Assembly: GCF_003334255.1 (NCBI RefSeq)
Contig: NZ_QOWU01000013.1
DNA from: Escherichia coli
Lineage (GTDB): Bacteria > Pseudomonadota > Gammaproteobacteria > Enterobacterales > Enterobacteriaceae
Length of the DNA stretch: 64,000 nt
Direction: 5' to 3' (one strand)
Notes under the pieces: generated by a model
Databases searched by the model: none
What the model saw: the letters and a program-made list of their open reading frames with translations, nothing else
What the model was told of the DNA's origin: nothing
Made by a program: the position numbers and the translations under genes
Part shown: positions 10,440-19,078 of the stretch, piece by piece
How the letters are laid out: the number at the start of each line of letters is the position of its first letter
How positions within the stretch are numbered: position 1 is the first letter of the stretch

Positions 10440-10860
10440 ATGCCGGATACGGCCTACGGTTCGGCACAGACTTGTAGGCCTGATAAGACGCGTCAAGCGT
10501 CGCATCAGGCATTGTGCGCCAACTGCCGGATGCGGCGCGAACGCCTTATCCGGCCTACGGTTCGGCACAAACCTGTAGGCATGATAAGACGCGACAAGCG
10601 TCGCATCAGGCATTATGCGCCGACTGCCGGATGCGGCGTGAACGCCTTATCCGGCCTACGGTTCGGCACAGACTTGTAGGCATGATAAGACGCGACAAGC
10701 GTCGCATCAGGCATTGTGCGCCAACTGCCGGATGCGGCGTGAACGCCTTATCCGGCCTACGGTTCGGCACAAACCTGTAGGCATGATAAGACGCGTTAAG
10801 CGTCGCATCAGGCATTGTGCGCCAACTGCCGGATGCGGCGTGAACGCCTTATCCGGCCTA
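10440..10860. repeat. BIME: tandem array of at least 4 REP-pair units, about 100-bp period
   Basis: Unit GCCGGATGCGGCGTGAACGCCTTATCCGGCCTACGGTTCGGCACA...GTAGGCATGATAAGACGCG..AAGCGTCGCATCAGGCA recurs around 10440, 10540, 10640, 10740 and 10840 with point differences. Confidence 0.85.
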
Positions 10861-11637
10861 CGGCACGTTAAACAACGTATACGTGTTATTAAGCAACGCT
10901 TGCGCAATCTCATCCGCCGGTTCCCGGCGCAACTCGCAAAGCACGGCAAACACACGGGCAGCCTGCTCCGGGCGGTTAGGCTGCCCCTGAAAACCGTTGA
11001 GCGGCATATCCGGCGCGTCGGTTTCCAGCAATAACGATGCCAGCGGTAATTTTGCGATGACATCGCGGGTTTTACTGGCGCGTGGATAGGTGATAGTACC
11101 GCCTACGCCAATTTTGTAGCCCAGCTGTACAAACCGTTCGGCCTGTTGCAGGCTGCCGGAAAAACCGTGAACCACGCCAGTGCGCGGTAAATCGTGGCGT
11201 TTAAGATGCATCGCCAGTTTGTCGTGCGTGCGCCGTGAATGCAGGATCACCGGCAGATCGTAGCGTTTCGCCAGTTTCAGTTGTTCGTCGAGTAACCACT
11301 GCTGCCTCTCAAATTGCGGATCGTCGCCAAAGAGATCCAGACCGATCTCCCCCACCGCCACCACCTTCGCCGGACGCCTTTCCAGCGCCTGCTGTAGCTG
11401 CTCAAGAGACACATCGCTATGTTTTTCCAACATACCAGGATGCAAGCCCAATGCGGCATACAGCGGTTGATAATTTTCCGCTAATGCCAACACACGGGCA
11501 AAATTTTCCGCCTCTGTTGCCGGAACAATGATCTTGCCTACGCCCGCTTGTGCCGCGCGTTGCAGGCTGGCCTCTTCATCGCCACTAAACGGCGGGAAAT
11601 CAAAATGGCAGTGGGTGTCGATAAAACGGCAAATCAA
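10858..11637 (-). CDS. yjjV: TatD-family metal-dependent DNase/hydrolase
   Basis: 259-aa ORF MICRFIDTHCHFDFPPFSGDEE... with TatD-type DTHCH motif. Confidence 0.85.
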   Translation of the reverse strand: MICRFIDTHCHFDFPPFSGDEEASLQRAAQAGVGKIIVPATEAENFARVLALAENYQPLYAALGLHPGMLEKHSDVSLEQLQQALERRPAKVVAVGEIGLDLFGDDPQFERQQWLLDEQLKLAKRYDLPVILHSRRTHDKLAMHLKRHDLPRTGVVHGFSGSLQQAERFVQLGYKIGVGGTITYPRASKTRDVIAKLPLASLLLETDAPDMPLNGFQGQPNRPEQAARVFAVLCELRREPADEIAQALLNNTYTLFNVP

Positions 11638-15794: not shown

Positions 15795-16472
15795 TCAGTG
15801 TTTACACAGGAGCTGCTCCAGTTCGTGCAACGAAGAAACGGTCCAGGTGGGCGCGATGCCTTCTGGTTGCTCGCGATGGTGTGCATTCAGCCAGCAGGTC
15901 GCAAGCCCGGCGTTGATGCCACCGAGAATATCGGACTCGGCAGTGTCGCCAACCATCAGCACGCGTGAACGGTCAGGATTGCCCGCCTGTTCCAGCGCAT
16001 AATCGAAAATTTTCTTATTCGGTTTGGCAACGCCAACTTCTTCGGAAATCACCAGCAAATCGAAGTAATCACGCAGGCCCGTGCGTTCCAGACGTACCTG
16101 TTGCAAGGCACTAAAGCCGTTGGTGATGATGCCGATTTTGGCGTTGCCACGAATGGCGTTAAGCAGAGAAACCGCGCCCGGCAGCGGCGTGCAGATTTCC
16201 GCCATCGCATTAATAAAGGCTTCGTTGAGTTTACCTGGCTCGACGTTCAGCCGTTCGGCCCAGCTCTCAAACCGCCCGTGCTGAAGCTGTAATGAAGTGA
16301 TCGCGCCGTTTTGATAATCCACCCACAGTGGCTTGTTAACGGCCTGATAGTCCTGAAAATCTTCAGCGGTAAAGGTGACGCTGTAATCAAGAAACATCCG
16401 CTGCAGGCCGGTGAATGAGTCAAAGGTAAACAGCGTTTCATCGGCATCAAAGAAAATCCAGTCCCACTTCAT
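15795..16472 (-). CDS. yjjG: HAD-family pyrimidine 5'-nucleotidase
   Basis: 225-aa ORF with HAD motif I FFDADETL near the N-terminus; synteny. Confidence 0.9.
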
Positions 16473-17417: not shown

Positions 17418-18449
17418 ATGTCTGCATTTACCCCGGCAAGTGAAGTCTTGCTGCGTCACAGTGATGATTTCGAACAAAGCCGTATTCTGTTTGCCGGAGA
17501 CTTACAGGATGACCTGCCCGCGCGTTTAGATACCGCGGCCAGCCGTGCTCATACCCAGCAATTCCACCACTGGCAGGTATTAAGCCGCCAGATGGGGGAT
17601 AACGCCCGTTTCAGTCTGGTCGCCACGGCGGATGACGTCGCAGATTGCGATACGCTGATTTACTACTGGCCGAAGAACAAACCGGAAGCCCAGTTCCAGT
17701 TGATGAATTTACTTTCTCTGCTGCCAGTGGGGACAGATATTTTTGTCGTTGGCGAGAACCGCAGCGGCGTGCGCAGCGCCGAGCAGATGCTGGCAGATTA
17801 TGCGCCGTTGAATAAAGTCGACAGCGCTCGTCGCTGTGGCCTCTATTTTGGTCGTCTGGAAAAACAGCCGGTATTTGATGCGGAGAAATTCTGGGGCGAA
17901 TACAGCGTCGATGGCCTGACGGTCAAAACGCTGCCTGGCGTGTTTAGCCGCGACGGTCTGGATGTCGGTAGCCAGTTGCTGCTCTCGACGTTAACTCCGC
18001 ACACGAAAGGTAAAGTGCTGGATGTCGGCTGTGGCGCGGGCGTGCTTTCAGTTGCCTTTGCGCGCCATTCGCCGAAAATTCGTCTCACCTTGTGCGATGT
18101 CTCTGCCCCGGCGGTAGAAGCCAGCCGCGCAACACTTGCGGCCAACGGTGTTGAAGGTGAAGTCTTTGCCAGCAACGTCTTTTCCGAGGTGAAAGGTCGT
18201 TTTGATATGATCATCTCCAACCCGCCGTTCCACGATGGGATGCAAACCAGCCTGGATGCGGCGCAAACGCTGATTCGCGGTGCGGTGCGTCATCTTAATA
18301 GCGGCGGCGAGCTGCGAATTGTAGCGAACGCCTTCCTGCCTTATCCGGACGTGCTGGATGAGACATTTGGCTTCCACGAAGTGATCGCGCAAACAGGGCG
18401 CTTCAAGGTGTATCGCGCCATTATGACCCGCCAGGCGAAGAAAGGTTAA
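17418..18449 (+). CDS. rsmC: 16S rRNA m2G1207 methyltransferase
   Basis: 343-aa ORF with SAM-binding motif [12 protein letters not shown] and NPPFH catalytic motif. Confidence 0.9.
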
Positions 18450-18454
18450 TTATC

Positions 18455-18560
<106 letters not shown>

Positions 18561-18647
18561 ATCTGCCCCCGCATGCATACCAAACCTGCACGCTAGTTTC
18601 CTGATGGACATTTTTCCAGCAATTACACCTCTGTCGATAATTAACTA

Positions 18648-18675
18648 TTGACGAAAAGCTGAAAACCACTAGAAT
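18648..18675 (+). promoter_or_regulatory. sigma70 promoter of the tRNA-Leu gene
   Basis: TTGACG (-35), 16-bp spacer, TAGAAT (-10), about 40 nt before the mature tRNA 5' end. Confidence 0.7.
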
Positions 18676-18716
18676 GCGCCTCCGTGGTAGCAATTCTTTT
18701 TAAGAATTGATGGTAT

Positions 18717-18803
18717 GCGAAGGTGGCGGAATTGGTAGACGCGCTAGCTTCAGGTGTTAGTGTCCTTACGGACGTGGGGGTTCAAGTCCCCCCCCTCGCA
18801 CCA
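18717..18803 (+). tRNA. leuV: tRNA-Leu (anticodon CAG)
   Basis: 87-nt GCGAAGGTGGCGGAATTGGTAGACGCGCTAGCTTCAGGTGTTAGTGTCCTTACGGACGTGGGGGTTCAAGTCCCCCCCCTCGCACCA with encoded CCA; one copy only. Confidence 0.95.
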
Positions 18804-18841
18804 ATTATCTTTACTTCCTTTCTTGTTTCTTCCTTGATTTT

Positions 18842-19078
18842 TCATCCCTGATTCAAATTCATTATCATCAGCATGATGCCAGCAATAAGTGCCAGGCACG
18901 ATGGTAGCAAAATGTAATGCCGCAACTGTTTGTGATACAGCATCATCGGCGTCAATACTAATCCCATCAGAATGACAATCCGCCACTGATCTGACGATAA
19001 ATCCGCATACATCAGCCCTGCAATCAGCAATCCCGGCAGCAACACTCCCCAGCCACTGCCCAGCGTACGTTGCAACAT
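18842..19078 (-). CDS. yjjZ: small inner-membrane protein
   Basis: 78-aa ORF MLQRTLGSGWGVLLPGLLIAGLMYADLSSDQWRIV... from ATG 19078; track ORF extends further upstream. Confidence 0.7.
   Translation of the reverse strand: MLQRTLGSGWGVLLPGLLIAGLMYADLSSDQWRIVILMGLVLTPMMLYHKQLRHYILLPSCLALIAGIMLMIMNLNQG

What the first reader, a model, noticed from the sequence alone, without database searches (positions are those of the whole stretch)
18620..18803. Single tRNA-Leu(CAG) gene where K-12 has the leuQ-leuP-leuV triplet
Only one 87-nt tRNA-Leu with its promoter lies between rsmC and yjjZ; about 393 bp separates those genes, too short for three copies plus spacers. This suggests copy-number reduction by recombination between tandem identical genes, or an ancestral single-copy state.
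Basis: partly seen in the sequence, partly recalled or inferred. Interest (0 to 1): 0.4.

Follow-up and report, generated by a model that had tools for sequence, protein, structure and literature searches.

The report
Three-gene leucine tRNA array shrunk to one
This E. coli strain carries one copy of a leucine tRNA gene where most strains carry three in a row; this is a common, already catalogued copy-number variant caused by loss of tandem repeats, so it is ordinary.

Summary
The window has one 87-nt tRNA-Leu(CAG) gene (18717-18803, +) with its promoter. It lies in a 392-nt gap between rsmC and yjjZ; MG1655 has leuQ-leuP-leuV in a 628-nt gap. The missing 236 bp equal two tRNA genes plus the 28- and 34-nt spacers. 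The junction is clean and the flanks match K-12 exactly.

The single copy is derived, not ancestral. The three-gene array at this syntenic site occurs in 69 of 81 loci from other Enterobacterales species and in about 91% of 5,426 complete E. coli genomes.

About 7.8% of E. coli genomes have one copy. These include O157:H7 (Sakai annotates a lone 'leuQ'; its O55:H7 relative has three) and at least ten unrelated backgrounds. About 0.9% have two copies. Near-identical haplotypes carry three (K-12), two (LR-33) or one copy (this window, N18-04097), so contraction is recurrent and recent.

The likely mechanism is misalignment between the 87-bp direct repeats, by template switching, slippage or unequal exchange. 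This is inferred, not shown.

Assembly collapse cannot be excluded without reads. An MC1061 assembly shows one copy but its descendant DH10B shows three.

The variant is known and of low interest.

The parts
17418..18449 (+). rsmC (16S rRNA m2G1207 methyltransferase), the upstream flanking gene that fixes the synteny
   Evidence: 343-aa ORF. Annotated as rsmC at the same position in N18-04097, MC1061 and LR-33.
18460..18600 (.). REP-type palindromic units between rsmC and the tRNA promoter. Not part of the copy-number change.
   Evidence: Read from the sequence. It carries the GCCGGATGCGGCGTGAACGCCTTATC motif also found in the 101-bp REP array at 10450-10863. Identical to MG1655; O157:H7 lacks 78 nt here.
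18648..18675 (+). Promoter of the tRNA-Leu transcription unit: -35 TTGACG (18648-18653), 16-nt spacer, -10 TAGAAT (18670-18675), followed by the G+C-rich GCGCCTCC
   Evidence: Consensus scan, 10 of 12 matches. Identical in MG1655, LR-33 and O157:H7. Function is inferred from the K-12 leuQPV operon, not tested here.
18676..18716 (+). Discriminator region and 5' leader, removed by RNase P in K-12. The start site was not mapped here.
   Evidence: Identical to the leuQ leader of MG1655. [quoted passage not shown]
18717..18803 (+). The single tRNA-Leu(CAG) gene, 87 nt, long variable arm, encoded CCA end. The 236-bp loss lies somewhere within or at the edge of this repeat unit and cannot be placed more precisely.
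   Evidence: ARAGORN; Rfam tRNA at 48.5 bits; 87/87 identity to MG1655 leuQ and leuV, with the C8 run intact.
18804..18841 (+). 3' trailer (AATTATC...), identical to the sequence after leuV in K-12. No intrinsic terminator.
   Evidence: Alignment. No terminator-like site on the + strand. PMC2190699 reports Rho-dependent termination after leuV.
18842..19078 (-). yjjZ (DUF1435 protein), the convergent downstream flanking gene
   Evidence: ORF. Annotated as yjjZ WP_001393508.1 at the corresponding position in N18-04097, MC1061 and LR-33.

Best explanation
The locus is a contracted allele of the conserved enterobacterial leuQ-leuP-leuV operon. An ancestor carried three tandem 87-bp tRNA-Leu(CAG) genes separated by 28- and 34-nt spacers. 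Misalignment between these direct repeats removed 236 bp in register, either in one step (leuQ with leuV) or in two steps through a two-copy form like that of the close relative LR-33. The misalignment could be template switching or slippage during replication, or unequal sister-strand exchange. What remains is one intact gene with the original promoter, leader and trailer. It should be transcribed as a monocistronic precursor, cut by RNase P at the 5' end and trimmed at the 3' end, and it should be functional. Together with leuT elsewhere in the genome, this would leave two genes for the CUG-reading tRNA instead of four. Shown here: the structure, its derived status, and its recurrence in other lineages. 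Inferred: the molecular mechanism, expression of the gene, and any fitness effect.
For: One tRNA gene in a 392-nt gap, against three in a 628-nt gap in MG1655. The difference is exactly 2 x 87 + 28 + 34 = 236 bp, with identical flanks and no scar. Over window positions 1-34935 there are only 3 SNPs relative to MG1655. LR-33 has two copies and differs by 17 substitutions and 3 gaps over 64 kb. N18-04097 has one copy. Census of 5,426 complete E. coli genomes: 4,950 carry both spacers, 49 carry one spacer and 427 carry neither; 425 have leader, tRNA and trailer contiguous. Single-copy genomes occur in O157:H7 (Sakai; ECP19-198), while O55:H7 DEC5B has three. They also occur in GF3-3, PapRG-06-5, SMBL, the 2020S05-013 series, CEA224S, BEC1-S17-ESBL-07, GF47, GF8, JL05, TUM9803, PapM-36-2 and APEC E18005. 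Outgroups: 81 loci from other Enterobacterales species, nearly all with rsmC upstream and yjjZ downstream, of which 69 have three copies. Salmonella contigs show three copies on one contig plus one elsewhere. Listed single-copy genomes show 2 places in total, the locus plus one other taken to be leuT, so no compensating extra copy is seen. RecA-independent deletion is prominent for direct repeats under 200 bp that lie close together (PMC7145654). A full leuVPQ deletion is viable in MG1655 (PMC9981150).
Against: No reads are available, so a collapsed assembly cannot be excluded for this window. The MC1061 assembly shows one copy, yet DH10B, which descends from MC1061 (my own knowledge of the pedigree), shows three. 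So some single-copy records could be artefacts. The closest genome found (LR-33) has two copies, not one, so no sequenced relative this close shares the single-copy state. The mechanism (RecA-independent versus RecA-dependent) is untested. Expression of the remaining gene was not measured.
Confidence: 0.8

Rival explanations
1. Assembly artefact. The strain really has two or three copies, and the assembler collapsed the 87-bp repeats by walking from leader through tRNA to trailer and dropping the spacer loops.
For: A collapse would give exactly this sequence. The MC1061 assembly has one copy while its descendant DH10B has three. MC1061 and OV2, both single-copy, have neighbouring accession numbers. 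The closest relative, LR-33, has two copies.
Against: The whole array is only 323 bp and its spacers are unique, so long reads or 150-nt reads normally resolve it (inference). The single-copy state is consistent across several hundred O157:H7-type genomes, to judge from evenly spaced samples, including the 2001 Sakai reference, and across seven assemblies of the 2020S05-013 lineage. So the allele exists in nature. N18-04097, a complete genome with this haplotype at the locus, also has one copy.
Confidence: 0.17
2. Ancestral single-copy state. This lineage never had the triplet, and K-12 and other strains amplified it later.
For: None beyond the bare presence of one copy.
Against: Three copies at the syntenic rsmC-yjjZ site in 69 of 81 loci from other Enterobacterales species, including E. 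albertii and Salmonella, and in 91% of E. coli genomes. The window's 35-kb flank differs from three-copy K-12 by 3 SNPs. That is far too close for the triplet and its two distinct spacers to have arisen independently.
Confidence: 0.01
3. Selected dosage reduction. The contraction happened by the same mechanism but spread because fewer tRNA-Leu(CAG) genes are advantageous in this strain's niche, for example slow growth or poor nutrients.
For: Contraction has recurred in many lineages and appears fixed in O157:H7. [quoted passage not shown]
Against: Outside O157:H7 the single-copy state is rare, fewer than about 90 of roughly 5,000 genomes by sampling. It is scattered at the tips of the tree, as expected for frequent, mildly deleterious or neutral mutations. 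PMC9981150 states that losing leucine tRNA redundancy is detrimental under rapid growth. No fitness data exist for one-copy alleles.
Confidence: 0.12

Closest known systems
leuQ-leuP-leuV (leuQPV) tRNA-Leu(CAG) operon of E. coli K-12 MG1655
   Same: Same chromosomal site between rsmC and yjjZ. Identical REP region, promoter, leader, tRNA sequence (leuQ/leuV type) and trailer.
   Different: One gene instead of three. Both inter-tRNA spacers and the leuP variant (C>T in the variable arm) are absent. The precursor would be monocistronic.
Single 'leuQ' locus of E. coli O157:H7 (Sakai ECs_R0127 and several hundred other O157:H7-type genomes)
   Same: Same one-gene structure at the same site, produced by the same in-register loss.
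   Different: An independent event on a different haplotype: the flanks are 98-99% identical, a 78-nt REP unit is missing, and there are two trailer SNPs. It arose after the split from O55:H7, which has three copies.
Two-copy alleles (LR-33 type with the 34-nt spacer; CFSAN004176 type with the 28-nt spacer)
   Same: Products of the same repeat misalignment. LR-33 shares the window's haplotype.
   Different: They keep one spacer and two genes, so they may represent the intermediate step.
RecA-independent deletion between short direct repeats (plasmid tetA repeat assays; template switching in post-replication gaps)
   Same: Repeats under 200 bp, closely spaced, with loss of exactly one repeat-plus-spacer unit per event (PMC7145654).
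   Different: That mechanism was shown on engineered 101-bp repeats. Here it is only inferred from the product, and RecA-dependent unequal exchange would give the same sequence.

Membership tests
tRNA-Leu(CAG) gene (tRNA-Leu1; leuQ/leuV allele) | Cloverleaf with a long variable arm, recognised by tRNA models | tested here: met
   ARAGORN tRNA-Leu, 87 nt; Rfam RF00005 at 48.5 bits against a gathering score of 29.
tRNA-Leu(CAG) gene (tRNA-Leu1; leuQ/leuV allele) | Anticodon CAG and sequence identity to K-12 leuQ/leuV | tested here: met
   Anticodon cag at position 35; 87/87 identity in the alignment, with C rather than the leuP T.
leuQPV operon locus | Position between rsmC and yjjZ, with the operon promoter upstream | tested here: met
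   ORFs and annotations of near-identical genomes; promoter match at 18648-18675, identical to MG1655.
leuQPV operon locus | Three tandem genes with 28-nt and 34-nt spacers | tested here: not met
   One gene only, with both spacers absent. This is a contracted allele of the locus, not the canonical operon.
leuQPV operon locus | Transcription from the promoter, RNase P processing, Rho-dependent termination | not testable with these tools
   Known for K-12 (PMC2190699). The sequence elements are identical here, but no expression data exist.
Repeat-mediated tandem-array contraction | The missing segment equals a whole number of repeat-plus-spacer units, with the junction inside the repeat and no scar | tested here: met
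   236 bp = 2 x 87 + 28 + 34, with flanks identical to MG1655.
Repeat-mediated tandem-array contraction | The multi-copy state is ancestral | tested here: met
   69 of 81 outgroup loci have three copies in the same synteny; 4,950 of 5,426 E. coli genomes carry both spacers.
Repeat-mediated tandem-array contraction | Recurrence and intermediates in independent lineages | tested here: met
   425-427 single-copy and 49 two-copy genomes; many unrelated backgrounds; both two-copy types seen.
Repeat-mediated tandem-array contraction | Dependence on replication template switching versus RecA | not testable with these tools
   This needs deletion-rate assays in recA+ and recA- strains.
Assembly collapse artefact | Excess read depth over the tRNA, or reads that contain the spacers | not testable with these tools
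   No reads are available for the window's source.

The most novel reading that the evidence does not exclude
The leuQPV array may act as a fast, reversible dosage dial for the most-used tRNA in E. coli. It contracts, and perhaps re-expands, often enough that near-identical haplotypes differ in copy number. One-copy alleles would then be favoured in slow-growth or host-restricted niches, which would explain their apparent fixation in O157:H7.
Probability: 0.12. Interest if true: 0.4.

Novelty: already known. Interest (0 to 1): 0.13.

Why it matters
The variant halves the gene dosage for the tRNA that reads CUG, which by my recollection is the commonest E. coli codon. It could therefore affect maximal growth rate. 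It is also a useful marker of how quickly short tandem arrays change, and a warning for assembly quality control. As a discovery it adds little. The same allele has been annotated in the O157:H7 Sakai reference (a 2001 genome, by my own recollection of the date) and occurs in about 8% of complete E. coli genomes. Copy-number changes of plus or minus one tRNA gene between strains are already described (PMC4539685).

Tried and rejected
1. Ancestral single copy: rejected by the outgroup scan and the E. coli census.
2. Identifying the exact source genome: no complete genome matches the window exactly. The T at 16095 was absent from MG1655, MC1061, N18-04097 and LR-33. LR-33 is the closest genome found but has two copies; N18-04097 has one copy but is less close.
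3. Using the tool's 'at least 80% covered' counts from long queries as a census: rejected, because pieces from multi-copy genomes are sometimes joined. Only the spacer query and the short junction query were used. They agree: 427 against 425.
4. Testing whether the MC1061 lineage inherited a single copy: DH10B has three, so the MC1061 record reflects either a stock-specific loss or a collapse. This was not resolved.
5. Looking for a phage-borne tRNA-Leu(CAG) that might explain a third match in O157:H7 chromosomes: no genuine phage hit. Left unexplained.
6. Literature searches for 'leuQPV' and for the gene names with 'deletion' found no paper devoted to copy-number polymorphism at this locus. 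They gave context only: PMC2190699, PMC8510543, PMC9981150, PMC4539685.
7. A substitution-only repeat count in the outgroup loci undercounted copies that carry indels. It was replaced by ARAGORN counts.

Full report
**What is in the sequence**

ARAGORN finds a single tRNA gene in the 64-kb window, tRNA-Leu with anticodon CAG at 18717-18803 on the + strand. The Rfam tRNA model matches the same place at 48.5 bits, E = 1.4e-8.

The gene lies between rsmC (17418-18449, +) and the convergent gene yjjZ (18842-19078, -), followed by fhuF and bglJ. The rsmC-yjjZ gap is 392 nt.

Upstream of the tRNA are REP-type palindromes (about 18460-18600) and a strong promoter match, TTGACG-16 nt-TAGAAT, at 18648-18675 with a G+C-rich stretch after it. 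No intrinsic terminator follows the gene on the + strand.

**Comparison with K-12**

MG1655 has leuQ, a 28-nt spacer, leuP, a 34-nt spacer and leuV in a 628-nt gap between the same two genes.

In a four-way alignment the window matches MG1655 at every aligned base from the end of rsmC into yjjZ. It lacks 236 bp, which is two 87-nt genes plus both spacers. The junction shows no scar. Because the repeats are identical, the breakpoint cannot be placed within the 87 nt.

The surviving gene is of the leuQ/leuV type. It lacks the C>T change that marks K-12 leuP, and it keeps the run of eight C residues. That run is a known indel hotspot (PMC8510543).

**Which strain background**

Over window positions 1-34935 there are only three SNPs relative to MG1655 (10948, 16095, 19180). 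Beyond about 37 kb the window carries a different restriction and 'immigration control' region, shared at essentially 100% with many other strains.

The closest complete genome found is LR-33 (human, Ecuador), with 17 substitutions and 3 gaps over 64 kb. It has two copies: a leuQ-type gene, the 34-nt spacer, then leuV.

N18-04097 (human, Canada) matches the window within two SNPs over 14 kb around the locus and has one copy. Over the full 64 kb it is less close than LR-33.

So haplotypes that are almost identical here carry three copies (K-12), two (LR-33) or one (the window, N18-04097).

**Direction of change**

A scan of one genome per species for two adjacent copies of this tRNA returned loci from E. 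albertii, other Escherichia, Salmonella, Citrobacter, Klebsiella, Raoultella, Enterobacter, Kosakonia, Pluralibacter, Pantoea, Erwinia and Izhakiella.

- In nearly all 81 loci examined, tblastn finds rsmC upstream and yjjZ downstream, and often fhuF as well.
- ARAGORN counts three tandem tRNA-Leu(CAG) genes in 69 of the 81. Several of the remaining 12 are cut off by the end of the locus or contig.
- Salmonella contigs in another collection show three copies on one contig and one elsewhere.

This scan can only find species with at least two copies. Even so, it shows that the triplet at this site long predates E. coli.

**How common it is in E. coli**

I searched 5,426 complete genomes with an artificial query carrying only the two spacers and 25-nt tRNA edges:

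| Spacers found | Inferred copies | Genomes | Share |
|---|---|---|---|
| Both | Three or more | 4,950 | 91.2% |
| One | Two | 49 | 0.9% |
| Neither | One | 427 | 7.9% |

An independent query (40-nt leader, tRNA, 40-nt trailer) is contiguous in 425 genomes, or 7.8%. The two counts agree.

Evenly spaced samples of those 425 are mostly O157:H7: four of five sampled rows.

- The O157:H7 Sakai reference annotates a lone 'leuQ' here, as does strain ECP19-198.
- O55:H7 DEC5B encodes the same YjjZ protein (WP_001310241.1) as O157:H7 ECP19-198 but has three copies. O55:H7 is the accepted progenitor lineage of O157:H7 (my own knowledge). On that view the loss happened on the O157:H7 branch and was inherited.

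Other single-copy genomes come from unrelated hosts and haplotypes. They include GF3-3, PapRG-06-5, SMBL, seven assemblies of the 2020S05-013 lineage, CEA224S, BEC1-S17-ESBL-07, GF47, GF8/75/161/153, JL05, TUM9803, PapM-36-2 and APEC E18005.

Both kinds of two-copy allele exist. Contraction is therefore recurrent.

**Mechanism (inferred)**

The product is what misalignment between 87-bp direct repeats 28-34 nt apart would give. Candidate routes are replication slippage, template switching in post-replication gaps, or unequal sister-strand exchange.

For repeats under 200 bp that lie close together, RecA-independent deletion is a prominent class in E. coli (PMC7145654). I therefore favour that route, but the sequence cannot separate it from RecA-dependent exchange.

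The loss could have been one step (leuQ with leuV, 236 bp) or two steps through an LR-33-like intermediate (115 bp, then 121 bp).

**Function of what remains (inferred)**

Promoter, leader, gene and trailer are identical to K-12, so the gene should be expressed. In K-12 the operon transcript is separated and 5'-matured by RNase P. It ends at a Rho-dependent terminator whose tail is removed by PNPase and RNase II (PMC2190699). Here the precursor would simply be monocistronic.

Listed single-copy genomes show only two matches in total, this locus and one other taken to be leuT, so no compensating copy is evident. Gene dosage for the CUG reader would then drop from four to two.

A complete leuVPQ deletion is viable in MG1655. 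Loss of leucine tRNA redundancy is reported as costly under rapid growth, with costs and benefits that depend on nutrients (PMC9981150). The rarity of one-copy alleles outside O157:H7, despite recurrent origin, fits mild purifying selection. That is an inference, not a measurement.

**The artefact question**

A collapsed assembly would give exactly the same sequence, and no reads are available.

One warning sign: an MC1061 assembly has one copy, yet DH10B, which derives from MC1061 (my own knowledge of the pedigree), has three. MC1061 and OV2, both single-copy, have neighbouring accession numbers; ME8067 is a third K-12 example. These records could be stock-specific losses or collapses.

Against collapse as a general explanation:

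- The array is only 323 bp and has unique spacers.
- The allele is consistent across the many O157:H7-type genomes sampled, including the Sakai reference.
- The allele is consistent across seven assemblies of one other lineage.

I put the chance that the window's single copy is an artefact at about one in six.

**Verdict**

The main interpretation, repeat-mediated copy-number reduction, is supported; the alternative of an ancestral single copy is refuted.

This is a known and fairly common allele of a well-studied tRNA operon. Copy-number differences of plus or minus one tRNA gene among E. coli strains have been reported (PMC4539685), and the O157:H7 reference has long carried this allele.

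Interest is low. The only mildly notable point is how quickly the array changes between near-identical haplotypes.

Noticed in passing
O157:H7 chromosomes (for example NZ_CP017249.1), not the window: The 167-nt leader+tRNA+trailer query gives 3 places per O157:H7 chromosome. These genomes have one copy at rsmC-yjjZ plus leuT, so 2 places were expected. The third match was not located, and a search of phage records found no genuine phage-borne copy.
   Followed up: partly
K-12 laboratory-strain assemblies NZ_CP195014.1 (MC1061), NZ_CP195020.1 (OV2), NZ_CP028703.1 (ME8067); locus L007: Three K-12 derivatives are recorded with a single tRNA-Leu at this locus. DH10B, which descends from MC1061 (my own knowledge of the pedigree), has three. 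This is either rapid loss in individual stocks or assembly collapse.
   Followed up: partly
window 10450-10863: A tandem array of 4.1 copies of a 101-bp unit containing REP palindromes (95% matches), in the yjjW-yjjV intergenic region. The same array is present in MG1655.
   Followed up: partly
window about 34936-64000: Identity to K-12 falls from near 100% to a cluster of SNPs at 34.9-37 kb. Beyond that the K-12 mrr-hsdRMS-mcrBC region is replaced by other genes: BrnT/BrnA toxin-antitoxin, a restriction endonuclease pseudogene, a different type I restriction-modification system, symE, a pentapeptide-repeat protein and the inverse autotransporter iatD. The stretch 36000-60000 is essentially identical to strains such as S88, ATCC 11775, LR-33 and N18-04097, so this looks like a recombination mosaic at the immigration control region.
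   Followed up: partly
window 18460-18600: The REP palindromes between rsmC and the tRNA promoter are identical to K-12. O157:H7 lacks a 78-nt unit here, so this spacer is also length-polymorphic.
   Followed up: no
MG1655 leuP (locus L001 1401-1487): K-12 leuP differs from leuQ and leuV by one C>T change in the variable arm. Neither the window's gene nor the two LR-33 genes carry the T, so the T-bearing part of leuP is not retained in these contracted alleles. Separately, Table 1 of PMC2190699 lists the 3' trailers of leuQ and leuP the other way round from the RefSeq gene order.
   Followed up: no
window 16095: A T here was not seen in MG1655, MC1061, N18-04097 or LR-33, which all have C. The window's exact source genome therefore does not appear to be among the 5,426 complete genomes searched.
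   Followed up: partly
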